Shown here one piece after another: positions 11,837-28,392 of a DNA stretch of 43,512 nucleotides. Made by a program: the position numbers and the translations under genes. Source of the DNA: Candidatus Woesearchaeota archaeon (GTDB lineage Archaea > Nanobdellota > Nanobdellia > Pacearchaeales > GW2011-AR1); the NCBI GenBank assembly GCA_964361295.1, contig CAYIAD010000001.1:1-43512 (forward strand), given 5' to 3'. Position 1 is the stretch's first letter; each line of letters begins with the position of its first letter. The notes below the pieces were generated by a model. That model was not told where the DNA came from, did no database searches, and saw nothing but the letters and a program-made list of their open reading frames with translations.

Positions 11837-12232
11837 TTATATTCTACCGGTTCTTTTGCATTTATCAAGTTTAATATATCTGGGGATGCCGAGTTCATCT
11901 GCATGTAAATCTGCTATTGCAGCATCAATCGAGTCGAGAAGTTCTTTTGTTCCATCGGGATATTTAATATGTCCTGTTCCCCCTGCGCCCTCATGGATAT
12001 GAAGTTCAAAACCTGAGAATGGTCTTATTGTCAATGGTCCACTCGACATAGACTGCGTATGTCCGAACATCGGAATATCACTAAACTCCAAAGGTCCACT
12101 TCCACCTAATGGCTTACTTGAATACAAAGCACTTGCACTTAAATATTCCAAATTTACGACGACAAAATAAGTTTTTGCCTGTCGTTGTCTAGAAATTCCT
12201 GTTTGATACATTTCTAAAGTTTGCTCAAGCAT
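11837..12232 (-). CDS. Cassette 2 long ORF (131 aa): conserved N-terminal module plus HIHE-type variable C-terminus
   Basis: The N-terminus is MLEQTLEMYQTGISRQRQAKTYFVVVNLEYLSASALY. The C-terminal ..GFELHIHEGAGGTGH.. tail is related to cassette 3 but diverged. Confidence 0.75.
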   Translation of the reverse strand: MLEQTLEMYQTGISRQRQAKTYFVVVNLEYLSASALYSSKPLGGSGPLEFSDIPMFGHTQSMSSGPLTIRPFSGFELHIHEGAGGTGHIKYPDGTKELLDSIDAAIADLHADELGIPRYIKLDKCKRTGRI

Positions 12233-12297
12233 AGAAACTAAAATAATTCAAAGTTTAACTATTTTTCTAAAAATAAAAGAAAGCTCCTTTCGGAGCC
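12233..12297 (-). repeat. Cassette terminator-promoter repeat unit (copy 3)
   Basis: It contains the same 41-nt block as copy 2 plus the hairpin GCTCC-tttc-GGAGC. On the minus strand the hairpin is followed by TTTCTTTTATTTTT. Confidence 0.7.
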
Positions 12298-12306
12298 AAA
12301 AATAAA

Positions 12307-12633
12307 TTAAAGAAGGTAACTTTTAATTACATCTACTAAAAAGGTTCTATTTTTAGGATCTGACCGAATAATTAAAATTATTCTATTAGAAGCAATTATC
12401 AAATCTATATCAAACTTTTCGTTGATAAAATTATCCAAATAACTTTTTAATTCCCAGATTTTATCTTCTTGGGATTGGTATTTCTCTTTAATTGCTTCAG
12501 ATATTAATCCAAATCCTAATTTTTCAAGCAAATCCGGAAATATTTTAAAAAAATTTCTGTCTTTTTTAAATATATAAAAAGTTCTTTTCTCATTATTTCC
12601 AGATCCAACTAAATTTATCTTATTGGTCATCAT
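12307..12633 (-). CDS. Cassette 1 small partner protein (108 aa), unrelated to the other two partners
   Basis: It overlaps the upstream 110-aa ORF by 14 nt. I see no similarity to the 97/101-aa proteins and no recognisable motif. Confidence 0.6.
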   Translation of the reverse strand: MMTNKINLVGSGNNEKRTFYIFKKDRNFFKIFPDLLEKLGFGLISEAIKEKYQSQEDKIWELKSYLDNFINEKFDIDLIIASNRIILIIRSDPKNRTFLVDVIKSYLL

Positions 12634-12952
12634 TGAAAATTCTTAGCTTTTTACCCTTTTTAGGGGTAAACGAAAAGTGATCAAAAGAGATATTCCCTTC
12701 CTTATCAATTTTAAAAGTTTCATGAACATCTTTTAATTCTGGAATTCTAAAATTTCCATAAGGAATTATCGCACCAATCCTCATTGGAATAATTCTTGCA
12801 TTTAAAGGTCCGCTTCCACCTAAGGGTCCGCTTGAATACAAAGCACTTGCACTCAAATATTCCAAATTTCCGACTACAAAATAAGTTTTTGGCGGTTGTT
12901 GTCTAGAAATTCCTGTTTGATACATTTCTAAAGTTTGTTCAAGTTGTTGCAT
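12620..12952 (-). CDS. Cassette 1 long ORF (110 aa): conserved N-terminal module plus unrelated C-terminus
   Basis: The N-terminus MQQLEQTLEMYQTGISRQQPPKTYFVVGNLEYLSASALYSSGPLGGSGPL is conserved. The tail NARIIPMRIGAIIPYGNFRIPELKDVHETFKIDKEGN.. differs from cassettes 2 and 3. Confidence 0.7.
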   Translation of the reverse strand: MQQLEQTLEMYQTGISRQQPPKTYFVVGNLEYLSASALYSSGPLGGSGPLNARIIPMRIGAIIPYGNFRIPELKDVHETFKIDKEGNISFDHFSFTPKKGKKLRIFNDDQ

Positions 12953-14117
12953 TTTTTTTACCTCCTTTTAATTGCAGTGGTTTGTCGCACTCTGCTGACG
13001 CTTGTTTAAAGTATTTAAGCAAATCATCTTTTTTAAATAATCTTATTCCAGATTTCAAACTTAAAGCATTTCTTAAATAAGTTCTGGAATAATCTAATCC
13101 ATGAGTATTTTCTTTTGAATTTTCAGGAAAATTTAAAGCAAATCTCATTTGTTTTTGACTTTGTTCTAAGTTATACTCTATTGCTTGTTTTGAAATTTGC
13201 TGATATGAACATCTTTGTTTCGCTTTTTCAAAATATACTTTGTCTCCTAAAATAAATTTCCCGGTCATTATAGGATTAGTAACTGCAAGATCAAACAGAT
13301 TTAATCTTCTTTCAAAATCTTCAATAGAATAGACTCGAACATCTAACCAAGATTGAGTTTCTGGCAAAGTTTCAGAAACAACAAAAATATCAATATCACT
13401 AAACTCTTTTCTTGAACCATATAATAATGCAAATTTTACCCCTCTAAGTTTATCTTTGTAAATATCTTCCAACAATCCCCCAACCCTCTTAGTAGTTGTT
13501 CTTCTCGCCATTCCTTGTACATAAAAAGTTGCTAAATTTCCAAATTGTTCTGAAAAATTAATTACTCCTTCGACAATTTGCCTATTTTCTTTCTTTAAAG
13601 AATTATATTTTCTTTCAAAATCTTCCCTTAAATTATGCTCTCCTGAAAGTAAATATTCTGTCCAAATAGCAAATAATTCATATTGAGATAGATTTCTTTT
13701 TCTAAATTTATCTAATTCTTGGAAAGTTTGATTTTGTTGTCTAAATCTTTGAACATCTTTCAAAGTAAATCTTCCAGAAGAAAACTCTTGTTTTTCTTCT
13801 TCTAATAATCTTTTTTCTAAATCTACTAATTTTCTTCCCAATAAAGATTGCTCACAACAAAGTCCATGCCCAAAATATTCGTGAAATAGACTTAAGGGAT
13901 TTTCTATTTGAACTAAGGCAGTTTGATTCCTAGGAAGATATATTCCCGAAGAATTTGGGTTTAGTCCTATTTGTTCTGCAAATTCATTCCATTTATTTTC
14001 TGGAATTTGTTGTAAAGAAGTTTGTTCTAATTTGTATCCTAATAGTTCTTGATAAAATTCGTTAGAAAAATCTAAAATTGTTTTTATTTTTGGCGCTTGT
14101 GTTTGAACTTGCTCCAT
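12939..14117 (-). CDS. Nucleotidyltransferase-domain protein (minimal Pol-beta/MNT-like core) with N-terminal HExxxH region; lead gene of the cassette locus
   Basis: FALLYGSRKEFSDIDIFVV fits the GS...DxD NTase signature, though the spacer is short. The N-terminal part carries LFHEYFGHGLCCE and the C-terminal part is a helical region. It overlaps the next gene by 14 nt. Confidence 0.5.
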   Translation of the reverse strand: MEQVQTQAPKIKTILDFSNEFYQELLGYKLEQTSLQQIPENKWNEFAEQIGLNPNSSGIYLPRNQTALVQIENPLSLFHEYFGHGLCCEQSLLGRKLVDLEKRLLEEEKQEFSSGRFTLKDVQRFRQQNQTFQELDKFRKRNLSQYELFAIWTEYLLSGEHNLREDFERKYNSLKKENRQIVEGVINFSEQFGNLATFYVQGMARRTTTKRVGGLLEDIYKDKLRGVKFALLYGSRKEFSDIDIFVVSETLPETQSWLDVRVYSIEDFERRLNLFDLAVTNPIMTGKFILGDKVYFEKAKQRCSYQQISKQAIEYNLEQSQKQMRFALNFPENSKENTHGLDYSRTYLRNALSLKSGIRLFKKDDLLKYFKQASAECDKPLQLKGGKKNATT

Positions 14118-14349: not shown

Positions 14350-14793
14350 ATGAAAAATAAAATTATAGTCTTTGTTTATGATAAGAAAAAAGACAAGTTT
14401 TTATTAATAAACAACACTAAACATCCAAATCACTCACTTAATGGAGGGTTGTTTACTATTAATCTTTCAATAAACCATAATGAATACGCAAAGAGCATAG
14501 CAGTAGAGCAGATTAAAAAAGAAATTGGGTTAATTCCAGAAGAAGTATTTTCTCTGAATTGGGGGGCAGTTTATAGTTTAAATGATGAAGAGTTTAAGGA
14601 AATGAATTTTCTCGCTTTTGTAAATCCTGATAAAAACAATCTTGATAAACATTCGTCTAAACACAAATGGTATAGCATAAATCCATTTATAGAAAAAATT
14701 GAATGGAAAGATGACAAAGAGCTATTAAAGAAAATTTTGATAAAAGGAATAAACAAAGAAGTTTTTTTTGATAAAAAAGAAAGAGGAAATTAG
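14350..14793 (+). CDS. Hypothetical protein, possibly Nudix-fold with a degenerate Nudix box
   Basis: GGLFTINLS..EYAKSIAVEQIKKEIGL resembles Gx5Ex7REUxEExGU, but the catalytic glutamates are not conserved. Confidence 0.3.
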   Translation: MKNKIIVFVYDKKKDKFLLINNTKHPNHSLNGGLFTINLSINHNEYAKSIAVEQIKKEIGLIPEEVFSLNWGAVYSLNDEEFKEMNFLAFVNPDKNNLDKHSSKHKWYSINPFIEKIEWKDDKELLKKILIKGINKEVFFDKKERGN

Positions 14794-15779
14794 AGAATAA
14801 TATCTCGGTTATTAGAGTAAATTTCTTCTACTTTTGTTTCTTCCGGTTTACTTTGATTATCCATTAAAGTTAAATTAACTTTATGCTTTACATTTCCTAC
14901 AAGAATATTGCCAATTTCATACTTTTTAACTTCATTTAATAAAGAAGATAATTTCCATTCCGGAGGTATCTTAAAATCTTCATTTAACATGGCGTAGGTT
15001 TCAATTGTAGAACCTTTATATCTCTTATATGGTCTATCATAGAATCCAAACATTTCAGTTATTAAATCTCCACCGAGATAAATTTTCTTGCTTACATTTG
15101 CTAATTTATTCCGGGTGTATTTTATTACCTTTTCTTTTATCTCTTTTTGATTTTTATATATTTCTTTCTTGGGAAGTAAATAGTTTATATGTTCTGAGTC
15201 ATTTATTGACTCAATCTTCCACTTGTTCTGTGAAAATTCTAATATGTTAATACACGTGTTATCTTGTTTAATCTTTACAAAATCACTTTTTTCTCTTCCC
15301 TGAGAGAGATTAATGAATACCGAATTTACGCCTGAATGAGCTATTACTCCTATTACCCCTTCTTCTTTCTGAATGTCTTGTAAAAACGACTTTACTCTTT
15401 TGATTAAATCCCAAATGTTCTCTCCACCAAAAGGTCTTATTTCATATTTTGTAATTCCAGATTTGAGAATTTCATTATACTTTTCATTCCACTTTTCAGA
15501 GGAGGGGTCAACATTGCCAGGTTCGTATTCTCTCAATCTTTCATCTGAAAATATTTTAACGCTTGAGACATTACTTATTTCGTCCGCAGTTTGTATTGCT
15601 CTCTTTAGATTGCTATAAAATAATTTATTAAAATGAATCGCTTTTAATCTTTCTGCTAATTTTTTGGATTGAATCACTCCCTGCTTGTTTAGGGACGTTT
15701 GATTATTCTGTCCCCATTCCAAGCTATCTCTATTAAAATCTGTCTCTCCATGTCTTATAAGATATATTTTTAGACTCAT
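14790..15779 (-). CDS. Histidine phosphatase (PGAM superfamily) fused to an uncharacterised ~120-aa C-terminal domain
   Basis: PGAM motifs are YLIRHGETDFN, YSNLKRAIQTADEI, GGENIWD and VIAHSG. It is a paralog of 16795-17757 along its full length. Confidence 0.75.
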   Translation of the reverse strand: MSLKIYLIRHGETDFNRDSLEWGQNNQTSLNKQGVIQSKKLAERLKAIHFNKLFYSNLKRAIQTADEISNVSSVKIFSDERLREYEPGNVDPSSEKWNEKYNEILKSGITKYEIRPFGGENIWDLIKRVKSFLQDIQKEEGVIGVIAHSGVNSVFINLSQGREKSDFVKIKQDNTCINILEFSQNKWKIESINDSEHINYLLPKKEIYKNQKEIKEKVIKYTRNKLANVSKKIYLGGDLITEMFGFYDRPYKRYKGSTIETYAMLNEDFKIPPEWKLSSLLNEVKKYEIGNILVGNVKHKVNLTLMDNQSKPEETKVEEIYSNNRDIIL

Positions 15780-15800
15780 TTAATTACTCCAAAAAATATT

Positions 15801-16784
15801 TCAGGTAGAATATCTCCTCAGTTCTTTGAACACATGTTCTCCCCAGATTAAACTTTGGTTCCTACCATCCCAATCAATATCTTCAAATCTATAATCTATT
15901 TCATCTCTAAAACATAGTTGTTTAAGAGCAGTCTTTAATTTTTGTATAGATATTTTTTTCCCAGTATTTTGTAGTATATACTCTCTGGGTTTATATTTAT
16001 GGATATTTTTTAAAACCTCTTCTATCGCCATAGCTAAACCCTCGGGAGTTGGTTCAAAAAAAGCACCGGTCAAATTATTGATGTGCTTTCTTGTGGGATA
16101 ACAAACATCTTCAGGAATTAATACAGGAATGTTTGCAGATAAGCATTCCATTTTAAATCGATTAATCCCTTCTACTTTAGTCGTTAATATCCCTATTTGA
16201 GATTTATTTATTTCTTTATTTATTTCTTCTTTTGATCCTGGAAAATCTTTGTTACTCTTTGCATTATTAAAAAGAAAATCAATGTTCGCTCCAGTATCTT
16301 TAGCCAATTGAATCATTGAATCTCGGAATTCTATTTCTTGCATTGAGCCTCCATCTACAAAATGTCCCAATTTTAAGAATTTTCTTTTTGGAATTAATGA
16401 TGCAGCTCTAATTAATATTTCTGGTCTTTTAAACTCTGCCCATTGAGATATCTGAATACCAGTATACTCTTTTTCTAAATTTAATGGTTTAAAGTTTTCT
16501 GTGTCTACAAAGTCTGCTCCTGCAATATCTAACAAAATTGCATTGGGAAATCTTTTTTTGGTTTCTTCCCAAAAAGAGAGATCTTCTACTAATTTTATAT
16601 CCGCATATTTTGAATCGTTAAGTCCTCTCCAACCCCTTCTTTCAATTATATAAAATTTATCCTTTACAAAAGGCATTTTTTCTACCACGTTATCTACTTG
16701 TGAAAGAATTATAGCCCCTTTTTTATTTTCAAATGGCTCTTTTAATATTTTCATACTATAATAACCAATTGGAACTTTTTCCAT
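15801..16784 (-). CDS. GT-B fold glycosyltransferase (GT1/GT4-like)
   Basis: The C-terminal ILTTKVEGINRFKMECLSANIPVLIPED...TGAFFEPTPEGLAMAIEEVLKN matches the GT4 E-x-G...E-x-x-A-x-G-x-P-V / TG-x-L...pe-la-x-ai pattern. Confidence 0.55.
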   Translation of the reverse strand: MEKVPIGYYSMKILKEPFENKKGAIILSQVDNVVEKMPFVKDKFYIIERRGWRGLNDSKYADIKLVEDLSFWEETKKRFPNAILLDIAGADFVDTENFKPLNLEKEYTGIQISQWAEFKRPEILIRAASLIPKRKFLKLGHFVDGGSMQEIEFRDSMIQLAKDTGANIDFLFNNAKSNKDFPGSKEEINKEINKSQIGILTTKVEGINRFKMECLSANIPVLIPEDVCYPTRKHINNLTGAFFEPTPEGLAMAIEEVLKNIHKYKPREYILQNTGKKISIQKLKTALKQLCFRDEIDYRFEDIDWDGRNQSLIWGEHVFKELRRYST

Positions 16785-16794
16785 TTTTAATTAA

Positions 16795-17757
16795 TTATTT
16801 TATTACCTCCTTTATAGCATCTTCTTTTAGAAGCTCAAACGGAAGAGTAATATTGATTTTATGTTTTGTATCTCCAATACTAACTGAGCCAATCTCATAC
16901 TTCTCAAAGGCTTCATTTATTTCCGATATTTTCCATTCTTTTGGAATTTTTAAATTGTCTTTAAACTTTATGAAGACTTCTATTGGTGAACCCCAATGTC
17001 TCTTGTGTGGACGATTATAATAACTAATTTTATTCATAGCAAAGTCTCCAGTAACAGCAATCCTGTCACATAAATTTCCTATTTTATTCAAAATAAATTT
17101 ATTTATTTCTTTTTTTACCTTGATCTGATCTACATAGGCTTTTTCTTCTGGCAAAAATGTAGACATGTGATTTGAATCGTTTATCACTTTTATACTCCAT
17201 TGACCTTTAGAGTACTCAAGAATATTAATGCAGGTATTGTCCTGTTTCACCTTAATAAAATCATTTTTTTCCCTTAGCTGAGACATATTAACAAAAGCTC
17301 CATTGAAACCAGAATGAGATATTATCAAGATATTTCCTTCTTCTGTCTCTAAATCTTTCATGAATGATTTCATTCTTTTTATAATATCCCAAATATTCTC
17401 TCCTCCATAGGGTCTTATTTCTTCCTTAGGAACTCCTTGTTCAAGCAATTCATCATACTTTTTACGCCATTCTTCAGAAGATTGATCTACTCCGCCAGAG
17501 TCATATTCTCTTAGTCGCTTATCTAAAAAAACAGGAGCATTTATTATTTTTGTAATGATTTTTGTTGTTTCGGTAGCCCTTCTTAAATCACTAGAGAATA
17601 TTTTTTTAAATTTAATATTTTTAATCCTTTCAGAAAGTTTTTTTACCTGTTCGATACCAAACTCATTTAATGAAATGTCGGGATGTTGCCCCCATTTCTT
17701 TTTTTGTCTATTAGTTTCTGTCTCCCCATGCCGAACAAGATATACTTTTAGTGTCAT
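16795..17757 (-). CDS. Histidine phosphatase (PGAM superfamily) fused to an uncharacterised C-terminal domain (paralog of 14790-15779)
   Basis: PGAM motifs are YLVRHGETETN, SSDLRRATETTKII, GGENIWD and IISHSG. The C-terminal ..VTGDFAMNKISYYNRPHKRHWGSPIEVFIKF.. aligns with its paralog. Confidence 0.75.
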   Translation of the reverse strand: MTLKVYLVRHGETETNRQKKKWGQHPDISLNEFGIEQVKKLSERIKNIKFKKIFSSDLRRATETTKIITKIINAPVFLDKRLREYDSGGVDQSSEEWRKKYDELLEQGVPKEEIRPYGGENIWDIIKRMKSFMKDLETEEGNILIISHSGFNGAFVNMSQLREKNDFIKVKQDNTCINILEYSKGQWSIKVINDSNHMSTFLPEEKAYVDQIKVKKEINKFILNKIGNLCDRIAVTGDFAMNKISYYNRPHKRHWGSPIEVFIKFKDNLKIPKEWKISEINEAFEKYEIGSVSIGDTKHKINITLPFELLKEDAIKEVIK

Positions 17758-17763
17758 TTTATT

Positions 17764-18768
17764 TTAATTTATTTGCGAAATTAAAGCTTCTAAATCTTTT
17801 GAGGTGATGCTACTTTTTTCATTAAAGCCAACTGATATTGCTTTTGTTCTTTTCAGCCATCCGATGTTTATACTTCCTCCGTTTGGTCTATGTTCTTCTT
17901 TTCTTTTTATTGCCTGAAAAACTTGTTGGTCTGAGAGGGGAGTTAAAGTAAATGACCCCTCCTCTAGATAGTATAATAATATTATTCCATTTACCCCACA
18001 ATAAGGAAGTGTTTTTATTCCTTCTAGATGTGCAAATCTTCTTCTTGATATCATTACTCCTGCGTCCACATTATAAGATTTATTATTTATTATGTCTTCT
18101 ATATCTTCTGCCTCAAGGATTTGAGTAGCATCCAACTCACTAGTCTTTAGAAGTAATTGTCGGAGTTTTTCAGATTTTGCAATTGAAGAAAATCGTAAAT
18201 GAACCGGTTTTGGCAAATAACTTCCAGTTAAAATATCTTCTTCAACAGATAAAAAAGTTTTACCGTCAGAAACTAATGAACCGCCAAAATCATCCATCAT
18301 CTTTAGAGCCAAGGTAGTTTTTCCTGCCCTATGATCTCCTATAATCAGATATCCTTTCGAATCTAAAGAAACTAATGATGCGTTAATGAGTACTTTATTT
18401 GATGAATGCTCATCACTATTTAAATAAAAATATCTTAAACATTTTAATGGTCCTTTTTCATCTCCTGGAAGGTAAGATACAATTAAAAAATCATTTGGGG
18501 ATCTTTGCCAAATACTTCGAGTCAATATTCCATATCTAAAATAATCTTTTCCTCTAAAGCTAAAATCACTATTATCTCTACTCCATGTGTGTGGATAGGC
18601 TTTATCATTTAAAACTACTCTTGATTTTTCAGCACGGACTCTTATCATACAATCGGGCGATTCATCTTCTTTTGGAGATTCGTCTAAATTCATTAATACC
18701 CTCCGTTCATATGGGTCAGGCAAATCAAATCCTATTGTTGTTTCTCCAAGATATTTAATATTTTTCAT
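17764..18768 (-). CDS. HPr kinase/phosphorylase-like P-loop protein (HprK-related kinase)
   Basis: LIIGDHRAGKTTLALKMMDDFGGSLVSDGKTFL...LTGSYLPKPVHLR parallels the HprK pattern G-x-SG-x-GKS..AL.L....LVaDD.. ..G.p. It also has an extra ~130-aa N-terminal domain. Confidence 0.55.
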   Translation of the reverse strand: MKNIKYLGETTIGFDLPDPYERRVLMNLDESPKEDESPDCMIRVRAEKSRVVLNDKAYPHTWSRDNSDFSFRGKDYFRYGILTRSIWQRSPNDFLIVSYLPGDEKGPLKCLRYFYLNSDEHSSNKVLINASLVSLDSKGYLIIGDHRAGKTTLALKMMDDFGGSLVSDGKTFLSVEEDILTGSYLPKPVHLRFSSIAKSEKLRQLLLKTSELDATQILEAEDIEDIINNKSYNVDAGVMISRRRFAHLEGIKTLPYCGVNGIILLYYLEEGSFTLTPLSDQQVFQAIKRKEEHRPNGGSINIGWLKRTKAISVGFNEKSSITSKDLEALISQIN

Positions 18769-18784
18769 ATTCCTTAAATTTTAT

Positions 18785-19834
18785 TTACGATAGTAAGTCT
18801 TCTATTACTGTTTTGTTTAATTTTTTATAATCTGAAAAAGATAATTTAAAACAAGGTATCCCTTCGATCCAATCTTCATGTGTTAAAGCTTCTTGCATTT
18901 CTTCTTTTTCATAAGCTTTCTTCAGTCGACCCATATCAGGATTTTTTGCTATCTCTACTTCTCTTAAAATAGAAAATGCTTTGTATGGATCCATTCTCTC
19001 TATTCTCGGGGCATCATCTTTAGAGTATTCTGGAAATACTATTCTAGTTATTCTGCATTTGCTTCTTGTCCTAACTCCAAGAAAGCTTGCAAAATTTTTC
19101 CTAGCAATGTCTACGCTTGCATCCAAATCTAATTTTCCCGATTTGATTAACTTCTCAATATAATCTTCATCTATATTTTGTGTTGCTTCTACAATAGAAT
19201 AATCGTCTAGTATTCTTGATAACCCCTTTGTATCATAAACTGATTTCAACCTAAGGTGGATTGGAACGGGTAAATAAAAACCGGTTAATCCCTCTTTGGT
19301 TTTTTCAACTAACGTATGTTCATCCATAACAAGATTTGAAGATAAATTCTCTAAGAACCATAATAATAAAGATGTTTTTCCTGCAAAAGAATTTCCTGGA
19401 ATTAATATTCCCTCTGATCCAAAACTTACTAAAGAAGAATGGAATAATGCTTTGTTCCTTGAAGAATCTTGACTAAAGTACCATTTTTTTATTATCCTAG
19501 TAACTCCACTCTCATCTTTCGGTATATAAGATTCCACTACAAACTCATTTTCTCTTGGTATTAGGATAGTCATCACCTTTTCCTTGTATCTAAAAAAATC
19601 TATTGCTGGTAAAGGTCTAGACTCATCTAAAGAAGTTCTAGCAAAGGGATATTCTTTATTTTTAACAATTCTAACTGGAGAACCAGATATAACTTCTATC
19701 TTTAAATCTGCATAGACTTCTTTAGAACTAGTGATAACTGGCTCATCAATATTTTTTTCTATTCTCGTTAAATATTCTTGTGGAGCATCTATAAGTATTT
19801 TTTTTTCTCCAAGATAATTGAATAGTCTAAACAT
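18785..19834 (-). CDS. HPr kinase-like P-loop protein (paralog of 17764-18768)
   Basis: ILIPGNSFAGKTSLLLWFLENLSSNLVMDEHTLV...LTGFYLPVPIHLR matches its neighbour. The two also share N-terminal blocks (YLGE..I.D.P..Y). Confidence 0.55.
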   Translation of the reverse strand: MFRLFNYLGEKKILIDAPQEYLTRIEKNIDEPVITSSKEVYADLKIEVISGSPVRIVKNKEYPFARTSLDESRPLPAIDFFRYKEKVMTILIPRENEFVVESYIPKDESGVTRIIKKWYFSQDSSRNKALFHSSLVSFGSEGILIPGNSFAGKTSLLLWFLENLSSNLVMDEHTLVEKTKEGLTGFYLPVPIHLRLKSVYDTKGLSRILDDYSIVEATQNIDEDYIEKLIKSGKLDLDASVDIARKNFASFLGVRTRSKCRITRIVFPEYSKDDAPRIERMDPYKAFSILREVEIAKNPDMGRLKKAYEKEEMQEALTHEDWIEGIPCFKLSFSDYKKLNKTVIEDLLS

Positions 19835-20750
19835 TGTAATTTCTAAGATCCTCCTCTATAGAGGGTCCTACTCCTACAATTCTTCTTGATTGTTGAATTT
19901 CTTTATTCTGCATCCATCTTTCCTTTGAGAAATATCCCTTTGGATGATCTAAATGTAAAACTTCAAAACGTTCTTCGGTAGGAAATTGAAGAAAACCAAA
20001 CGATTCTTTTAATTTCCATTGCAAATCTGCATCCTGACATCCCCATCCAGCAAATCTTAAGGAAAATCCACCCACCAGATTAAATTGTTTTTTGAGCATT
20101 AATGTTCCACCTGCATGAGTCTCTAAAGTAGAGTAAAATGGTTCATATCCTTTTGCTGAATCTCTTATATAATTTTCATAATCTGTTTCTGTATAAAGAA
20201 AAGTTTTCATTCTTCCTGATTCAAATTTCTTAAAAATCTTCATGCCAACTTTATGTGAGCCAGTTGCTAGATATGGCTTAGATCTATCTAAATGACTTAG
20301 AGAAAGTTCTATTCCATTTAATTTTGTATCTTCACTAAATTCTTGAAAGCATTCCAAGGGTAATCTTTTCATAGGAGGTCTAAATAGAATACCTCCATTT
20401 AGTTCTTTTAAGAGTTGAATAGATTCTTTTAAGAAATAAGGATTTTGGAAGATTATATCTCCATCGCTACTATAAACAAAGGGATTATTGCATTCGCTGA
20501 CTGCTTTATTTCTTACTACTCCAGGACAGAAAAATTCTCCGTCTTTATTACTTATTGGAATATGAATGTATTTTATGATACTCAGAAAATTATCTTTTTT
20601 TAAGGTAGGGGATCTCGATTGTTCTACTACTACAACCTCCAAATCTACTTCTTTTTGAAGACCCATCGAATCTAACACTAAATTGACTCTGTCCTCTTTA
20701 AATACACCATAAAAAGGTATTGCTACACTTATTTTTTCTTTTGAATTCAT
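19827..20750 (-). CDS. GT-A fold glycosyltransferase (GT2-like, galactosyltransferase-type C-terminal motif)
   Basis: Motifs are ISVAIPFYG...LEVVVVEQS, a DxD (SSDGDIIF), and GWGCQDADLQWKL followed by LHLDHPKGY. Confidence 0.65.
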   Translation of the reverse strand: MNSKEKISVAIPFYGVFKEDRVNLVLDSMGLQKEVDLEVVVVEQSRSPTLKKDNFLSIIKYIHIPISNKDGEFFCPGVVRNKAVSECNNPFVYSSDGDIIFQNPYFLKESIQLLKELNGGILFRPPMKRLPLECFQEFSEDTKLNGIELSLSHLDRSKPYLATGSHKVGMKIFKKFESGRMKTFLYTETDYENYIRDSAKGYEPFYSTLETHAGGTLMLKKQFNLVGGFSLRFAGWGCQDADLQWKLKESFGFLQFPTEERFEVLHLDHPKGYFSKERWMQNKEIQQSRRIVGVGPSIEEDLRNYNV

Positions 20751-20775
20751 TTTCCTTTAAATTCTTTTAAGGCGG

Positions 20776-21738
20776 TCATTTTTCCCCATACTCTTTTTTT
20801 AATATTTCTTTATCATATTCAACTGCTAATTTTACTCCATTTTTCTTTCTTTCAGAACTTTTTTCCTCATTAAGAGCCCACATTTTTGGAGAGACATATC
20901 CTTTTGGATGATCTAAATGGATAACTTCTAATTCTGGAGGGAAAAATTCTAATTTGTACAGCTCTCTAAATTTCCATTGTAAATCTGAATCCTCACACCC
21001 CCAATTTATAAATCTCTCACAATATCCCCCCAAAGCTATAAAATGAGATCTTCTAAATAAGTTTGATCCACAATGTCTATTTTCATTCCAGTAAATTGGC
21101 CAGAAATTGAAATTGTCATCTGATCCAAGTCTTTCTTCAACATATTTTTTATAATCTTCTATTAAAGAAGTAAAAGTTTTCCTGTAATTTGCTTCTTTGC
21201 TATCTTTTTCAAAAATCTTTAGCTCTCTATATGAAGTAGATGTTTTAACTAAAAATTCTTGATTAATGACTAACTTTTTAAGTGCTTTTTCAAAACCTAG
21301 AGAATTACACCATTGATTAAACTCTTCAAAATTATCTTTAGGTAATCTTCTCATAAATGGACGGAATAATGCTTTGTTTGGATCTGTTTTAATAAAATCG
21401 AGTAATTTTTTTAGAAAATATGGATCTGGGAAGATTACATCCGCATCCATAGTATAGATATAATCTTTTGTAGAATTTAAGATAGCAATATTTCTCACTT
21501 TTCCTGGATTAAAATCACTTAAGTTTTCTCGTGGTTTGTGATAAGTAAAAGCATATCTTACTCCCTCAATTGAAGGAAATCTTCTAGTCTCTCCTTGTTC
21601 AGATACAACAATTTCTTTATCTATATCTTTTTGCATTTTTATAGAATCGATGCATCTAAGAATTCTCTGAATATCAAAATTTCCATATAATGGAATAATT
21701 ACACTTATTCCTTCATTTTGTCGCATAAAATTACTCAT
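20776..21738 (-). CDS. GT-A fold glycosyltransferase (paralog of 19827-20750)
   Basis: Motifs are ISVIIPLYG...EIVVSEQG, a DxD (TMDADVIF), and NWGCEDSDLQWKF followed by IHLDHPKGY. Confidence 0.65.
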   Translation of the reverse strand: MSNFMRQNEGISVIIPLYGNFDIQRILRCIDSIKMQKDIDKEIVVSEQGETRRFPSIEGVRYAFTYHKPRENLSDFNPGKVRNIAILNSTKDYIYTMDADVIFPDPYFLKKLLDFIKTDPNKALFRPFMRRLPKDNFEEFNQWCNSLGFEKALKKLVINQEFLVKTSTSYRELKIFEKDSKEANYRKTFTSLIEDYKKYVEERLGSDDNFNFWPIYWNENRHCGSNLFRRSHFIALGGYCERFINWGCEDSDLQWKFRELYKLEFFPPELEVIHLDHPKGYVSPKMWALNEEKSSERKKNGVKLAVEYDKEILKKEYGEK

Positions 21739-21760
21739 TATTGAAATTTATAAATTTTAC

Positions 21761-21769
21761 TATTTTAAA
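21761..21769 (-). promoter_or_regulatory. TATA-like box (minus strand TTTAAAATA) for the glycosyltransferase/kinase/phosphatase cluster
   Basis: It lies 22 nt upstream of the ATG at 21738 on the minus strand. Confidence 0.4.
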
Positions 21770-21782
21770 GAGAGAATATATA

Positions 21783-21796
21783 GAAAAGATTAAATA
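21783..21796 (+). promoter_or_regulatory. BRE/TATA-like box GAAAAGATTAAATA upstream of archease
   Basis: It ends 21 nt before an ATG at 21818, which opens a 19-codon micro-ORF. The archease ATG is at 21890. Confidence 0.45.
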
Positions 21797-21889
21797 TAAC
21801 CAGTTCTTATGAGAGAGATGAAGAATAACATTAAATTCCTCTGCTCGGAACCCGAACTTTTCAGTAAAGGTTTTTAGTAAAGGTGTAAA

Positions 21890-22327
21890 ATGATAAAAAC
21901 AAAAAGTAACAAAAAAGAGTCAAAGTTCAAATTCCTCGAACATACAGCAGATGTTAAATTTCAGGCATCTGGGAAAAGTTTAGAAGAAGCATTTTCAAAT
22001 TGTGTTTTGGCTTTGAGAGAGACGATTACTCGAGGATTAAAAATTCAGGAAAAGGAAACTCAGAAAATTAGAGTTGAAGGAAAAGATTTGGAAAATTTGT
22101 TATATGCTTTTTTGGAAGAATTTTTGTATTTACTTGATGCAAAGAGTTTTTTAGTTTCAAAAATTAAAGAAATTGAAATTAAAGATAACAAATTAACAGC
22201 AATTGTCGTCGGTGATGAAGCTAAAAATTATAAATTTTCAAATCCTGTTAAAGCAATAACTTATAATGAGATGTTTGTAAAACAAATTAATAATAAATGG
22301 GTTTGTCAGGTTGTGCTGGATGTTTAA
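21890..22327 (+). CDS. Archease (RtcB tRNA-ligase activator family)
   Basis: FKFLEHTADVKFQASGKSLEEAF is the N-terminal archease signature, and the ~145-aa size fits. Confidence 0.8.
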   Translation: MIKTKSNKKESKFKFLEHTADVKFQASGKSLEEAFSNCVLALRETITRGLKIQEKETQKIRVEGKDLENLLYAFLEEFLYLLDAKSFLVSKIKEIEIKDNKLTAIVVGDEAKNYKFSNPVKAITYNEMFVKQINNKWVCQVVLDV

Positions 22328-26322: not shown

Positions 26323-26730
26323 ATGGTGAAAGAAAACAAAAAAACACTGGGAAAAATAAAGGGATTTACAATTCAGTTCTTGCCTTATTCTGAAATTAGA
26401 AATCTAGACAGTGATGAGAGAATAAAAAAAATTCTTAATATAATTTTAGGAAATAGTATAATTCTTTTACAGGGGAAATTAAGCGCAGAAGAAGAATCCC
26501 GGTTAATTGGAGACACAATGGCGATGATTGGGCATGTAAATAATTTCAAAGGGATTGAACTTGCAGTGATTTCCAATAGTGAAGAAAGTTTTTTTGGTAA
26601 AGTCAGATTTGGTCTTGTGAAGGCACTTTCTGGAGGAGATTTAGGAGCGATAACAATTATTGGTCCTGCTTCTATTGTAAAAGAAATAAAAAGAAATCCA
26701 AAGAAGATTGAATTAATGTTAAATAAGTAG
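26323..26730 (+). CDS. Conserved archaeal protein of unknown function (DUF2073-like), GTPase-linked
   Basis: Its position between a GTPase and a Zn-ribbon protein matches a gene triad I recall as conserved in archaea. I see no catalytic motif. Confidence 0.45.
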   Translation: MVKENKKTLGKIKGFTIQFLPYSEIRNLDSDERIKKILNIILGNSIILLQGKLSAEEESRLIGDTMAMIGHVNNFKGIELAVISNSEESFFGKVRFGLVKALSGGDLGAITIIGPASIVKEIKRNPKKIELMLNK

Positions 26731-26731
26731 A

Positions 26732-26745
26732 GAAAAGATTAAATA
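26732..26745 (+). promoter_or_regulatory. BRE/TATA-like box GAAAAGATTAAATA
   Basis: It ends 21 nt before the ATG at 26767, which opens a 13-codon micro-ORF. The Zn-ribbon gene ATG is at 26826. Confidence 0.45.
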
Positions 26746-26825
26746 GTTTATTTCTTTAATTAAATTATGCCAATGGCATCCTTTAATTTTTGTTATTGGC
26801 TAAAATAAAATTCAAAAATCAAAAA

Positions 26826-27248
26826 ATGCCACACCAGTGCGTCAAGTGTTCTAGAATTATTCCTGCTGGAAGTCGGGAGCTTTTAGAAGGATGTGCAGAA
26901 TGCAAAGGGCATTTCTTTTTTTATATTAGAGATGATCAATTAGCTAGAATAAGAGAAAATCCAGTTGAAATTCCAGAAGGAGACAAAGCATCAATTGAAA
27001 AAGACATCAGAGAAATGGCTGGAATTGTAGAAGAAAATGCTCCAGTAATTTTGGATATTGAATCTGTTAGAGTAACTGGAGATGGAAAGTTTGAAATAGA
27101 CATTGTTAATTTGTTTAAAAAAGACAGACCTTTGATTTACAAATTAGAAGAAGGAAAATATATCATTGATTTAGCTACGACATTAAGCAGAAATCTTAAG
27201 GATATAAAAGAAATTGTTGATCCTGATGAAAAGAAAAAAGAAGATTAA
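26826..27248 (+). CDS. Zn-ribbon protein (archaeal DUF2072-like)
   Basis: MPHQCVKCS...GCAECKG gives a CxxC...CxxC ribbon and the C-terminus is acidic. The ORF-track start at 26790 is TTG, so the first ATG is used. Confidence 0.6.
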   Translation: MPHQCVKCSRIIPAGSRELLEGCAECKGHFFFYIRDDQLARIRENPVEIPEGDKASIEKDIREMAGIVEENAPVILDIESVRVTGDGKFEIDIVNLFKKDRPLIYKLEEGKYIIDLATTLSRNLKDIKEIVDPDEKKKED

Positions 27249-27288: not shown

Positions 27289-27810
27289 TTAGAGGGAATT
27301 TTCAACATTATGAATTTTTTTAATAGTTTTAATAATCTTTGAAATCTCTGATTTTTTTCTTAGAATTAAATATTTTTTATTGTATTTTTTTATTATCTCG
27401 CTATGTGCATGTAACGATACAGGATTTTTTGTATAGTGATATTTGCATACTTCTTTCGCTAATTTAATTGCCTCAAAAAGAGTATCCTTTTTGTGCTTTA
27501 CTCTAAATAGATGTCTGCTTAAGATTCTATAAATACAAAGAATTTTGGAGGTATGCATAAGTATAATTATATCGGCTTTTTTGAAAGCATCTTCAGCGTA
27601 ATTCGACCATGTTCCCTCGGTTATCCATTCTGATAAATTACAAATTTTCTGAAGTTTTCTTACCCTCTCTTCCACATCTCGAATCTTGCTGTATTTAATT
27701 TCATACTTTAAGTCATCTAATGCATAACTTTTTATTCCAAATTTCTTAGATAAAATCTTTGCTAAAGTTGATTTCCCCGAACCATAAATCCCACAAATAT
27801 GTATTCTCAT
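27289..27810 (-). CDS. P-loop NMP-kinase-like protein (adenylate kinase / FlaR-type)
   Basis: The Walker A motif is ICGIYGSGKSTLAKIL, and the ~170-aa size fits. It is the last gene of the seven-gene operon. Confidence 0.6.
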   Translation of the reverse strand: MRIHICGIYGSGKSTLAKILSKKFGIKSYALDDLKYEIKYSKIRDVEERVRKLQKICNLSEWITEGTWSNYAEDAFKKADIIILMHTSKILCIYRILSRHLFRVKHKKDTLFEAIKLAKEVCKYHYTKNPVSLHAHSEIIKKYNKKYLILRKKSEISKIIKTIKKIHNVENSL

Positions 27811-28391: not shown

Positions 28392-28392
28392 T

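What the first reader, a model, noticed from the sequence alone, without database searches (positions are those of the whole stretch)
14790..21738. Seven-gene minus-strand cluster built from three paralog pairs (GT-A x2, HprK-like x2, PGAM-fusion x2) plus a GT-B: candidate phospho-glycosylation system
All seven genes are co-directional with 6-25 nt gaps or an 8-nt overlap, behind one TATA box at 21761-21769. The order is GT-A, GT-A, HprK-like, HprK-like, PGAM-fusion, GT-B, PGAM-fusion. Each enzyme type except the GT-B is present as a diverged tandem paralog pair. Examples are WGCQDADLQWKL..LHLDHPKGY against WGCEDSDLQWKF..IHLDHPKGY, and GDHRAGKTTLAL against GNSFAGKTSLLL. Serine-kinase-like P-loop proteins combined with phosphatases and three glycosyltransferases do not match any standard archaeal N-glycosylation, S-layer or lipid pathway I know. 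HprK homologs are known to phosphorylate peptide substrates in some bacterial lasso-peptide clusters, where the phosphate can be further decorated. A phosphorylate-then-glycosylate (or phosphatase-reversible) modification of a protein, peptide or polymer is therefore plausible, possibly in two specificity variants.
Basis: partly seen in the sequence, partly recalled or inferred. Interest (0 to 1): 0.7.

Follow-up and report, generated by a model that had tools for sequence, protein, structure and literature searches.

The report
Conserved archaeal kinase–phosphatase glycosylation operon
A seven-gene operon in a tiny groundwater archaeon joins three sugar-adding enzymes to an unusual kinase and a phosphatase; the same core recurs in dozens of related archaea and probably builds a sugar compound through a temporarily phosphorylated intermediate, but its product is unknown.

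Summary
Seven co-directional minus-strand genes (14790-21738) have the stated gaps and domain types. The three paralog pairs are 37%, 30% and 50% identical.

The cluster is not an accident of this genome. A core of GT-A, GT-A, kinase, GT-B and histidine phosphatase recurs in the same order in about 30 loci from DPANN archaea (Pacearchaeota and Woesearchaeota named). Kinase and phosphatase are present or absent together: 20 both, 7 neither, 3 mixed.

- **GT-A pair:** ancient and universal in the cluster.
- **Second kinase (G4) and second phosphatase (G5):** lineage-specific extras.
- **Kinase:** a new family of about 40-50 clusters. By sequence profile it relates to HprK/P. A confident model matches ATP-dependent PEPCK best over the whole protein.
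- **"PGAM fusion" C-terminal domain:** a degenerate minimal Pol-beta nucleotidyltransferase. Intact standalone copies sit in the cluster in other genomes.

I found no precursor peptide, membrane protein or transporter.

Most likely (about 0.4), this is a cytoplasmic pathway in which the kinase phosphorylates an acceptor, the GT-B glycosylates it, the phosphatase removes the phosphate and the GT-As extend it. The substrate is unknown.

The parts
20776..21738 (-). G1. G1-type GT-A (GT2-like, inverting-type) glycosyltransferase, 320 aa.
   Evidence: Pfam Glycos_transf_2 at 1e-13, plus Glyco_transf_7C. Best PDB sequence hit is chondroitin synthase K4CP at 4e-8. DxD, RPxMRRxP, WGCEDxDxQWK and HxDH are conserved in 26 orthologues. 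Orthologues at 40-76% identity sit in the cluster elsewhere.
19827..20750 (-). G2. G2-type GT-A glycosyltransferase, 307 aa. An ancient paralogue of G1.
   Evidence: 36.6% identical to G1. Glyco_transf_7C and Glyco_tranf_2_2 hits. Separately orthologous across loci, for example 59% in L003 and 72% in L005. DxD, WGxxDADxQWKL and HLDH conserved in 17 orthologues.
18785..19834 (-). G3. PEPCK/HprK-fold P-loop kinase, 349 aa. This is the copy with orthologues in other genomes.
   Evidence: Family of 42 representatives at E<=1e-30. AF2 model pLDDT 93.5. Foldseek matches ATP-PEPCK at 2e-6 (TMq 0.47) and the HprK/P C-domain at 7e-5. The family profile hits HprK/P structures at 6e-7. Invariant R82, Y83 and K153; near-invariant H132, G147, G152, T154 and R195.
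17764..18768 (-). G4. Second, divergent copy of the same kinase family, 334 aa. Specific to this lineage.
   Evidence: 30.5% identical to G3. No relative closer than about 36%. Keeps the P-loop but has H132N and D222E at near-invariant positions.
17161..17757 (-). G5 N-terminal domain. Branch-1 histidine phosphatase (aa 1-199). This is the divergent extra copy.
   Evidence: His_Phos_1 at 8e-45. RHG, R60, E84 and H148 conserved. Only 3 of 49 family members are closer to G5 than to G7.
16798..17160 (-). G5 C-terminal domain. Degenerate minimal Pol-beta-type nucleotidyltransferase (aa 200-320).
   Evidence: The C-terminal-extension HMM matches standalone ~130-aa ORFs with canonical GS...GSDID motifs at 1e-16 to 1e-22. 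Those ORFs hit Pfam Polbeta and NTP_transf_2. hhalign gives 98.9% probability, E 2.3e-17. In G5 the motif reads GD...GSPIE...HKIN, so two of three carboxylates are lost.
15801..16784 (-). G6. Probable GT-B (GT4-like) glycosyltransferase with a short N-terminal domain, 327 aa. The most conserved gene of the cluster.
   Evidence: Glycos_transf_1 at 3e-6, just above the cut-off. EX7E motif E205...E213 and invariant ERRGWRG. Orthologues at 52-77% identity in more than 30 loci. No PDB sequence hit, so the fold assignment rests on Pfam and the motif.
15183..15779 (-). G7 N-terminal domain. Branch-1 histidine phosphatase. This is the copy with orthologues in other genomes.
   Evidence: His_Phos_1 at 3e-39. 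46 of 49 family members are closer to G7 than to G5. Positional equivalent of the phosphatase downstream of the GT-B in other loci.
14793..15182 (-). G7 C-terminal domain. Degenerate minimal nucleotidyltransferase (aa 200-329).
   Evidence: Same evidence as for G5. The motif reads GD...GSTIE...HKVN.
14350..14793 (+). Convergent 147-aa NUDIX-family homologue with a degenerate Nudix box. A recurrent neighbour of the cluster.
   Evidence: 56% identical to the L005 protein, which hits Pfam NUDIX at 8.5e-12. Also found near the cluster in L003, L018, L022, L036, L038, L040, L048, L053, L063 and L066. In the window copy REUXEE reads EQIKKE.
21739..21889 (-). Upstream intergenic region with TATA-like elements (21769-21761 and 21754-21747). 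Putative promoter of the operon, divergent from the archease gene.
   Evidence: Sequence read. The chance frequency of such 8-mers is about 0.9 per kb per strand. No terminator-like or promoter-like excess inside the cluster.

Best explanation
This is a conserved cytoplasmic glycoside or oligosaccharide assembly operon of DPANN archaea (Pacearchaeota and Woesearchaeota) that runs through a transiently phosphorylated intermediate.

**Proposed steps**
1. An ATP-dependent kinase of the PEPCK/HprK fold (G3, with G4 as an extra, possibly altered copy) phosphorylates a hydroxyl of the acceptor. The acceptor is more likely a small molecule or sugar than a locally encoded peptide.
2. The adjacent GT-B (G6) glycosylates the phospho-acceptor.
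3. The adjacent histidine phosphatase (G7, with G5 as an extra copy) removes the phosphate.
4. The two inverting-type GT-A enzymes (G1, G2) add two further sugars.

In other genomes the same core is extended by GT28, GT4, methyltransferase, radical-SAM/SPASM, APH-kinase and GH5/GH26 genes. The catalytically degenerate nucleotidyltransferase domain on the phosphatase probably serves for nucleotide or substrate binding, or for docking.

**Shown:** gene content, homology, intact catalytic motifs, and conserved order and co-occurrence.

**Inferred:** the order of reactions, the nature of the substrate, and the role of the pseudo-nucleotidyltransferase.
For: **Conserved order.** The order kinase, GT-B, phosphatase is conserved.

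| Loci (G6 orthologue identity) | Kinase immediately upstream | Phosphatase adjacent | GT-As upstream |
|---|---|---|---|
| >=60% | 20/21 | 14/15 | 12/12 |
| 52-60% | 8/11 | 7/10 | 8/9 |

**Kinase and phosphatase travel together.** Next to G6-type genes the counts are 20 both, 7 neither, 1 phosphatase only and 2 kinase only. Fisher p = 1.3e-4, although the loci are not phylogenetically independent.

**Catalytic residues are intact.**
- Kinase: P-loop, His and acidic residue align to the HprK/P core.
- Phosphatase: RHG, R, E and H.
- Both GT-A types: DxD.
- GT-B: EX7E.

**Kinase fold.** The whole-length model (pLDDT 93.5) is closest to ATP-PEPCK, a two-domain small-molecule kinase. Distant sequence relatives also hit FomB, a phosphonate kinase. 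One distant relative sits next to a sugar-phosphatase-type HAD and a phosphoribosyltransferase.

**Cytoplasmic, no peptide.**
- All seven proteins lack hydrophobic segments.
- No conserved small ORF flanks the cluster in about 30 loci.

**Accessory genes elsewhere are carbohydrate or small-molecule enzymes.** These include a methyltransferase with weak rhamnosyl-O-MTase similarity, GH5, GH26, GT28, GT4, a sugar epimerase, PIG-L and an IPMS-like HMGL enzyme.

**Precedent.** GT plus histidine-phosphatase logic is known from GpgS/GpgP, which start mycobacterial MGLP synthesis (PMC3240985).
Against: - No substrate is identified, and no step has been assayed.
- No characterised enzyme of this logic uses a PEPCK/HprK-fold kinase.
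- G1 and G2 do not match GpgS (E 0.09).
- Characterised HprK-like enzymes outside PEPCK and FomB act on proteins or peptides (PMC8498205).
- About half of the loci carry a radical-SAM/SPASM gene, and several carry an intact Pol-beta nucleotidyltransferase. Both are typical partners of HprK-like kinases in peptide-modification cassettes.
- The PEPCK structural match is only moderate (TMq 0.47).
- G6's GT-B assignment is marginal (27.3 against 26.4 bits; no PDB sequence hit).
Confidence: 0.4

Rival explanations
1. Peptide or protein phospho-glycosylation. The HprK-like kinase phosphorylates a Ser/Thr of a protein or ribosomal peptide encoded elsewhere. Sugars are then built on or next to the phosphate by the nucleotidyltransferase and glycosyltransferases. 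The histidine phosphatase makes the mark reversible or proofreads it.
For: - The family profile hits HprK/P at 6e-7.
- Distant relatives match HprK_rel_A/B and ScmC models.
- The cluster carries a Pol-beta nucleotidyltransferase module. HprK-like kinase plus Pol-beta-fold NTase is exactly the pair that phospho-hexosylates pseudomycoidin and recurs in LPP RiPP clusters (PMC6993621, PMC13381572, PMC8498205).
- A radical-SAM/SPASM gene is present in about half of the loci.
- Some loci lie near type IV pilus or surface-protein genes.
Against: - No conserved precursor-like ORF was found.
- No PqqD/RRE, leader peptidase or exporter appears in any locus.
- The nucleotidyltransferase domain in the window has lost two of three catalytic carboxylates, and the window has no intact copy in the cluster.
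- The fold is closest to PEPCK over both domains.
- The tight kinase/phosphatase coupling suits a transient intermediate better than a final mark.
Confidence: 0.25
2. Donor-side module. The kinase, nucleotidyltransferase, NUDIX protein and phosphatase do not touch the acceptor. Instead they make and police an unusual sugar nucleotide from a scavenged sugar: sugar to sugar-phosphate to NDP-sugar. The three GTs then use that donor.
For: - Kinase, nucleotidyltransferase and NUDIX is the classic salvage and quality-control set for NDP-sugars (own knowledge).
- A NUDIX gene recurs next to the cluster.
- Intact minimal nucleotidyltransferases are present in several loci.
- APH-type kinases are accessory genes in L008, L014 and L047.
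- DPANN archaea are scavengers (own knowledge).
Against: - The nucleotidyltransferase is degenerate in the fused form found in most loci, and it is absent from short-phosphatase loci such as L003.
- The Nudix box is degenerate in the window.
- Known sugar-1-P nucleotidyltransferases and anomeric kinases belong to other folds (own knowledge).
- This reading does not explain why the phosphatase is obligatory.
Confidence: 0.12
3. Early cytoplasmic steps of a lipid-linked cell-surface glycan or glycolipid (N-/O-glycan precursor or glycosylated archaeol). The kinase and phosphatase act on the lipid phosphate or on a sugar of the lipid-linked glycan.
For: - GT2, GT4 and MurG/Alg13-like GT28 genes are typical of lipid-linked assembly.
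- Surface-protein or pilus genes are nearby in the window, L005 and L018.
Against: - None of the seven proteins has a membrane segment.
- No flippase, oligosaccharyltransferase or polyprenyl-phosphate initiating transferase is present in the window genes scanned or in the other loci.
- Known lipid kinases and phosphatases are membrane proteins of other families (own knowledge).
Confidence: 0.1
4. No joint function. The genes are neighbours by descent in small, gene-dense genomes, and the similarity of gene order reflects relatedness only.
For: - Many of the loci come from related Pacearchaeota-like genomes.
- Some flanking genes also show synteny (archease or RtcB, NUDIX).
Against: - The order survives down to 25-35% identity of the kinase, while the flanks differ completely.
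- Genes overlap or are 6-25 nt apart.
- Kinase and phosphatase are gained and lost together.
- Domain fusion and fission of the nucleotidyltransferase module occurs within the cluster.
Confidence: 0.03

Closest known systems
Phospho-intermediate glycoside pathways, e.g. GpgS (GT-A) plus GpgP (histidine phosphatase Rv2419c), which start mycobacterial methylglucose lipopolysaccharide. The same logic applies to OtsA/OtsB, SPS/SPP, MshA/MshA2 and VldE/VldH.
   Same: A soluble glycosyltransferase sits next to a dedicated phosphatase of the histidine-phosphatase superfamily. Further GTs and methyltransferases extend the product in the cytoplasm (PMC3240985).
   Different: - Here a dedicated kinase of the PEPCK/HprK fold is part of the conserved core.
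- The GT next to the phosphatase is a short GT-B, not GT81.
- G1 and G2 do not match GpgS (E 0.09).
- The phosphatase carries a pseudo-nucleotidyltransferase domain.
- The acceptor is unknown.
HprK-like kinase plus Pol-beta-fold nucleotidyltransferase tailoring of lasso peptides (paeninodin, pseudomycoidin) and LPP RiPPs.
   Same: A kinase distantly related to HprK occurs together with a Pol-beta-type nucleotidyltransferase module. The chemistry combines phosphate and hexoses (PMC6993621, PMC8498205, PMC13381572).
   Different: - No precursor peptide, RRE, cyclase, peptidase or exporter is present.
- The organisms are archaeal, not Bacillota or Proteobacteria.
- Three to five canonical GTs and an obligatory histidine phosphatase are present.
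- The nucleotidyltransferase is degenerate in the window.
HPr kinase/phosphorylase (HprK/P).
   Same: - The P-loop core, with a preceding His-containing strand and a following LVxD/E strand, aligns to HprK/P at 6e-7 to 6e-6 using the family profile.
- Structural match to the C-domain with TMt 0.5-0.59.
   Different: - As single sequences, G3 and G4 are far below the Pfam and TIGRFAM cut-offs.
- The N-terminal domain and overall architecture match PEPCK better.
- No PTS or HPr context was seen in the window.
ATP-dependent phosphoenolpyruvate carboxykinase.
   Same: Best whole-protein structural match (E 2e-6, about 380-400 aligned columns, TMq 0.47). Both are two-domain P-loop kinases.
   Different: - 10-12% identity.
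- 349 aa against about 530 aa.
- No sequence-level hit.
- The context is glycosyltransferases, not central metabolism.
Transient xylose phosphorylation in glycosaminoglycan linker assembly (FAM20B kinase, PXYLP1 histidine acid phosphatase, GT7/GT31/GT43 enzymes). Cited from my own knowledge, not tested.
   Same: A kinase and a histidine-type phosphatase bracket GT-A steps, so that a phosphate is put on and taken off during glycan assembly. G1 and G2 carry the beta4GalT7-type C-terminal motif.
   Different: The kinase fold is unrelated, the phosphatase belongs to branch 2, the substrate is a Golgi proteoglycan, and there is no evolutionary link.

Membership tests
HPr kinase/phosphorylase (Pfam PF07475, TIGR00679) | Scores above the curated family cut-off. 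| tested here: not met
   G3 scores 12.8 bits against a cut-off of 33.3. G4 has no Pfam hit. TIGR00679 gives E 0.06 against a cut-off of 240 bits.
HPr kinase/phosphorylase (Pfam PF07475, TIGR00679) | P-loop core homologous to the HprK/P catalytic domain. | tested here: met
   The 41-sequence profile hits 3tqf, 1ko7 and 1jb1 at 6e-7 to 6e-6 over positions 123-185. Foldseek hits HprK/P chains at 7e-5 to 1e-3 with TMt 0.5-0.59.
HPr kinase/phosphorylase (Pfam PF07475, TIGR00679) | Acts on HPr, with a PTS context. | tested here: inconclusive
   No PTS or HPr domain was found among the window proteins scanned. The whole genome is not available.
RiPP phospho(glyco)sylation cassette (lasso/LPP type) | A precursor peptide gene next to the enzymes. 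| tested here: not met
   No conserved small ORF was found in the flanks of 8 and then about 30 loci. All apparent matches are antisense shadows of known genes.
RiPP phospho(glyco)sylation cassette (lasso/LPP type) | RRE/PqqD domain, leader peptidase and exporter. | tested here: not met
   None appears in the Pfam hits of the seven genes or in the called genes of the related loci.
RiPP phospho(glyco)sylation cassette (lasso/LPP type) | HprK-like kinase together with a Pol-beta-fold nucleotidyltransferase that has an intact DxD. | tested here: inconclusive
   The kinase is present. In the window the nucleotidyltransferase domain is present but reads GS[TP]IE. Intact GSDID copies exist only in other loci: L021, L024, L027, L028, L030 and L047.
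Histidine phosphatase superfamily, branch 1 (PF00300) | Family score, plus the RHG nucleophile motif and the conserved Arg, Glu and His. | tested here: met
   G5 at 8e-45 and G7 at 3e-39. R9, H10, R60, E84 and H148 are invariant in 37 family members. Foldseek matches PspA, CobC and PhoE-type phosphatases at 1e-13.
Cofactor-dependent phosphoglycerate mutase (the 'PGAM' label) | Scores above the dPGM equivalog cut-offs. | tested here: not met
   The best dPGM model scores 78.6 bits against a cut-off of 225. The ribazole-phosphatase and PspA models score as well or better, and all are below their cut-offs.
GT-A / GT2-like glycosyltransferases | Family score and a conserved DxD. | tested here: met
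   G1 hits PF00535 at 1e-13. G2 hits only the C-terminal models PF02709 and PF10111. DxD is conserved in both ortholog groups.
GT-B / GT4 glycosyltransferases | Glycos_transf_1 C-terminal domain with EX7E, and a full-size N-terminal Rossmann domain. | tested here: inconclusive
   PF00534 scores 27.3 against a cut-off of 26.4, and E205-x7-E213 is invariant. Only about 95 aa precede the domain, and there is no PDB sequence hit. No structure model was made.
Minimal nucleotidyltransferase (Pol-beta superfamily; PF18765, PF01909) | Homology to the family. | tested here: met
   hhalign of the C-terminal extension against the standalone ORFs gives 98.9% probability and E 2.3e-17. The standalone ORF of L047 hits PF18765 at 7.8e-8 and PF01909 at 8.3e-8, both above their cut-offs.
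Minimal nucleotidyltransferase (Pol-beta superfamily; PF18765, PF01909) | Catalytic hG[GS] motif and three carboxylates (DxD plus D). | tested here: not met
   G5 and G7 read GD ... GS[PT]IE ... HK[IV]N, where the standalone copies read GS ... GSDID ... HKVD.
Archaeal N-glycosylation (Agl) pathway | Membrane-bound lipid-linked assembly with an AglB oligosaccharyltransferase and a flippase. | tested here: not met
   None of the seven proteins has a hydrophobic segment. No STT3/AglB or flippase domain was found in the window proteins scanned.
Known anti-phage defence systems (PADLOC) | A match to any model. | tested here: not met
   No hit for any of the seven proteins.

The most novel reading that the evidence does not exclude
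The cluster is an archaeal counterpart of bacterial peptide phospho-glycosylation, but it acts on a macromolecule encoded elsewhere, such as a surface or pilus protein or even an RNA. The PEPCK/HprK-fold kinase would place a phosphate, glycosyltransferases and a Pol-beta-type transferase would build a glycan on or beside it, and the fused phosphatase/pseudo-nucleotidyltransferase would act as the eraser or reader. That would be a new reversible phospho-glycan modification in DPANN archaea.
Probability: 0.15. Interest if true: 0.85.

Novelty: new variant of a known kind. Interest (0 to 1): 0.6.

Why it matters
DPANN archaea have very small genomes and depend on hosts. A gene set that they keep in a fixed order across Pacearchaeota and Woesearchaeota is therefore likely to matter for their biology, for example through a surface or storage glycan or a protective solute.

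The cluster defines three uncharacterised things:
- a kinase family linking HprK/P and PEPCK;
- a histidine phosphatase fused to a dead nucleotidyltransferase;
- a short GT-B.

If the kinase, GT and phosphatase logic is right, it extends the phospho-intermediate way of making glycosides to a new enzyme set and gives a directly testable pathway. If the peptide or protein reading is right, it would be the first archaeal relative of RiPP phospho-glycosylation. I found no paper that describes the cluster.

Tried and rejected
**Searches that led nowhere**
- A word-indexed homologue search with G4 found only G4 itself.
- The same search with the C-terminal extension alignment found nothing, not even the window's own proteins.
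With four close sequences it returned only two loci, which were useful for taxon names.
- PDB sequence searches for the C-terminal extension and for G6 were empty.
- The Foldseek run on the G5 model returned only matches to the histidine-phosphatase domain among the top 50, so it did not identify the C-terminal domain. That domain was solved instead through the standalone homologues.

**Ideas rejected**
- *G4 and G5 were inserted together as a kinase/phosphatase unit.* In L019 a G3-like kinase is followed directly by a G5-like phosphatase and a G6-like GT-B, with no G4.
- *The 392-aa Pol-beta protein at 12939-14117 is part of the cluster.* It has no counterpart near the cluster in any other locus.
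- *A precursor peptide lies nearby.* All conserved small ORFs are shadows of real genes.
- *The cluster is a defence system.* There are no PADLOC hits.
- *The 2-hydroxyacid dehydrogenase and HMGL-like neighbours supply a hydroxy-acid aglycone.* Each occurs in only two or three loci, and the dehydrogenase is fragmented in L005-L007. I keep this only as a lead.

Full report
**1. The observation**

The window is about 30% GC throughout and has no tRNA or Rfam hit. It carries archaeal markers: archease, OapB/OapC, FttA, a proteasome subunit, TrmB and a class I CCA enzyme. The same cluster occurs on contigs from the 0.1 µm fraction of Hainich groundwater wells.

The seven minus-strand ORFs are at the stated coordinates. 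Their spacings are 25, -8, 16, 6, 10 and 21 nt.
- G1 and G2 are GT-A.
- G5 and G7 are branch-1 histidine phosphatases with an unassigned tail of about 120 aa.
- G6 is a marginal Glycos_transf_1 hit.
- G3 and G4 give only sub-threshold HprK hits as single sequences.

The paralog pairs are real: 36.6%, 30.5% and 49.8% identity, with E-values of 2e-55 to 9e-118. The TATA-like element exists but is weak evidence in AT-rich DNA. None of the seven proteins has a hydrophobic segment.

**2. The kinase**

G4 has no close relative in the word-indexed search. A full HMMER scan with the G3+G4 profile found 278 proteins, 42 of them at E<=1e-30 and full length at about 335-360 aa. G3 has orthologues at 60%, 41% and 39% identity. 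G4 has none above 36%.

A 41-sequence alignment gave an AlphaFold model with pLDDT 93.5 and pTM 0.91. Foldseek against the PDB ranks ATP-dependent PEPCK first (E 2e-6, TMq 0.47, about 380-400 columns). The HprK/P catalytic domain follows (E 7e-5 and weaker, TMt 0.5-0.59).

At sequence level the family profile hits HprK/P structures at 6e-7 to 6e-6. The aligned region covers the His-containing strand, the P-loop and the LVxD/E strand.

More distant members hit several NCBIfam models, all below cut-off:

| Model | Members hit |
|---|---|
| HprK_rel_B | 44/46 |
| hpr-ser | 22 |
| HprK_rel_A | 15 |
| ScmC | 8 |
| FomB phosphonate kinase | 7 |
| PEPCK | 4 |

R82, Y83 and K153 are invariant. H132, G147, G152, T154, R195, Q219, D222 and R245 are near-invariant. 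G4 departs at H132N and D222E.

So this is a distinct family within the PEPCK/HprK superfamily. It is not a member of HprK/P proper.

**3. Neighbourhood conservation**

Look-ups of family members show the same order elsewhere.

| Locus | Source | Gene order |
|---|---|---|
| L003 | Woesearchaeota MAG | HMGL-like, GT-A, GT-A, kinase, GT-B, short HisPhos, GT28 |
| L005-L007 | one named Pacearchaeota | GT-A, methyltransferase, GT-A, kinase, GT-B, HisPhos fusion, convergent NUDIX |
| L008 | JGI metagenome | adds radical-SAM/SPASM, methyltransferase, GH5, APH, GT28, GT4, GH26 |
| L017, L018 | ENA contigs | found by starting from the phosphatase fusion; same core |

tblastn shows that G1-type and G2-type GT-As are separately orthologous in these loci. 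G6 is the most conserved gene, at 54-74% identity.

A metagenome scan anchored on G6 gave 56 loci.

| G6 identity | Kinase upstream | GT-As upstream | Phosphatase adjacent |
|---|---|---|---|
| >=60% | 20/21 | 12/12 | 14/15 |
| 52-60% | 8/11 | 8/9 | 7/10 |
| <52% | 0/6 | 0/6 | 1/10 |

With HMM detection in loci that have at least 2.5 kb on both sides, kinase and phosphatase are both present in 20, both absent in 7 and split in 3. Fisher p = 1.3e-4, with the caveat that the loci are related.

**4. Which duplicates are conserved**

The GT-A pair is ancient. Both types keep DxD, RPxMRR, WGxxDxDxQWK and HxDH.

Of 49 relatives of the phosphatase fusion, 46 are closer to G7 than to G5. G5's one close relative, at 71%, sits between a G3-like kinase and a G6-like GT-B on L019. 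The kinase, phosphatase, GT-B order recurs in L072, and phosphatase then GT-B in L039; both are Hainich contigs.

G4 is unique to this genome. The window thus carries the conserved five-gene core plus one extra kinase and one extra phosphatase, acquired separately.

**5. The 'fusion' domain**

The C-terminal extension gave no Pfam or PDB hit on its own. In L021, L024, L027, L028, L030 and L047, a standalone ORF of about 130 aa directly follows the GT-B. L049 carries another one far from the cluster. These ORFs match an HMM of the extension at 1e-16 to 1e-22 over its whole length.

These ORFs have the canonical minimal-nucleotidyltransferase motifs (hGS ... GSDIDhh ... HKVD). They hit Pfam Polbeta and NTP_transf_2, and the L047 ORF scores above both cut-offs. 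Profile-profile comparison gives 98.9% probability and E 2.3e-17 over 109 columns.

In G5, G7 and the other fusions the motifs read GD ... GS[TP]IE ... HK[IV]N. Two of the three metal-binding carboxylates are gone, so the fused domain is probably not catalytic. The G5 model is confident (pLDDT 91.0), and its N-domain matches small-molecule histidine phosphatases.

**6. What it is not**

- No conserved small ORF flanks the cluster.
- No RRE, peptidase or exporter is present.
- There is no PADLOC hit.
- There is no membrane protein, flippase or oligosaccharyltransferase.
- I found no paper describing the cluster.

**7. Interpretation**

The tight, conserved adjacency of kinase, GT-B and phosphatase, their joint presence or absence, and their intact catalytic residues point to a single pathway. 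In it a phosphate is put on, a sugar is added and the phosphate is removed. This logic is known from GpgS/GpgP (PMC3240985). From my own knowledge it also applies to trehalose, sucrose, mycothiol and validamycin synthesis, and to the FAM20B/PXYLP1 step of proteoglycan linkers.

Several observations favour a small-molecule or glycan acceptor:
- the PEPCK-like two-domain fold;
- soluble proteins only;
- carbohydrate-type accessory genes;
- the lack of a precursor peptide.

I put this at about 0.4.

HprK-like kinases paired with Pol-beta-fold nucleotidyltransferases phospho-hexosylate lasso peptides (PMC6993621, PMC8498205) and occur in LPP clusters (PMC13381572). Half of the loci also carry a radical-SAM/SPASM gene.

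A donor-side (NDP-sugar salvage) reading gets about 0.12, a lipid-linked reading about 0.1, and no joint function about 0.03.

The order of reactions, the substrate and the role of the pseudo-nucleotidyltransferase are inferences. Nothing here was assayed.

**8. Verdict**

This is a real, conserved and undescribed operon of DPANN archaea built from unusual members of known enzyme superfamilies. I rate it a new variant of a known kind, with interest 0.6.

Noticed in passing
window 27289-32406 (-): A second seven-gene co-directional cluster made of kinases and histidine phosphatases. Its order is GlnD/Pol-beta-like nucleotidyltransferase (456 aa), HisPhos (219), APH-type kinase (293), thymidylate-kinase-like (194), HisPhos (196), HisPhos (194) and AAA_18 kinase (173). 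APH kinases and nucleotidyltransferases are accessory genes of the GT cluster in other genomes (L008, L014, L047), so the two clusters may be linked.
   Followed up: partly
window 6439-8056: A sixth histidine phosphatase (6962-8056, minus strand, 364 aa) has a different, unassigned C-terminal extension. It converges on and overlaps an AAA_33/zeta-toxin-like kinase (6439-6987, plus strand), which follows an NTP_transferase gene (5681-6439). In all, the window has six His_Phos_1 genes.
   Followed up: partly
window 11837-14117 (-): A 392-aa protein with an intact Pol-beta nucleotidyltransferase motif (LYGS...SDIDIFVV) is followed by small ORFs. Two of these (12620-12952 and 11837-12232) share a nearly identical ~50-aa N-terminus (LEQTLEMYQTGISRQ...LEYLSASALYSS.PLGGSGPL) and then diverge. 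It has no counterpart next to the cluster in other loci.
   Followed up: partly
window 14350-14793 (+): The NUDIX-family neighbour of the cluster has lost the Nudix box in this genome (REUXEE reads EQIKKE) and no longer hits Pfam NUDIX. Orthologues in L018 and L003 are intact or nearly intact, and the L005 copy is partly degenerate.
   Followed up: yes
window 21890-22327 (+); L005 5017-6153 and 13605-13856: Archease lies divergently next to the cluster in the window. Its functional partner RtcB lies next to the related cluster in L005. This may be inherited synteny rather than a functional link.
   Followed up: no
L014 7511-21089: A distant member of the kinase family (P0029, 26-32% identity) sits in a different sugar-type cluster. 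That cluster holds a sugar epimerase, an IPMS-like HMGL enzyme, GT28, GT-A, two APH kinases, radical SAM, a PIG-L deacetylase and a GFO/IDH oxidoreductase, which is reminiscent of thiol-glycoside or aminoglycoside pathways. Another distant member (P0054) sits next to a Ser/Thr-kinase-like gene, a HAD sugar phosphatase, a phosphoribosyltransferase and a radical SAM gene.
   Followed up: partly
window 26323-27248 (+): The OapB and OapC origin-associated protein genes lie about 5 kb from the cluster, so a replication origin may be nearby.
   Followed up: no
window 96-1454 (+): A 452-aa radical SAM/SPASM protein lies 13 kb from the cluster. It is only weakly similar (25%) to the radical SAM of L014, and it is not the ~300-aa type found inside related clusters.
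   Followed up: partly
window 15373-15618 (+) and 16733-17020 (+): These ORFs of more than 80 aa run antisense to G7 and to G5/G6. The first (15373-15618) recurs in other loci only as the antisense shadow of the conserved phosphatase gene, so it is not a real gene; the second was not compared.
   Followed up: yes
L016 7556-12093: A Pacearchaeota locus on a 211-kb contig appears to be an eroded version of the cluster. It has a truncated GT-A (199 aa), a shortened GT-B (278 aa), the phosphatase fusion, a split GT28 and GT4, but no kinase.
   Followed up: partly
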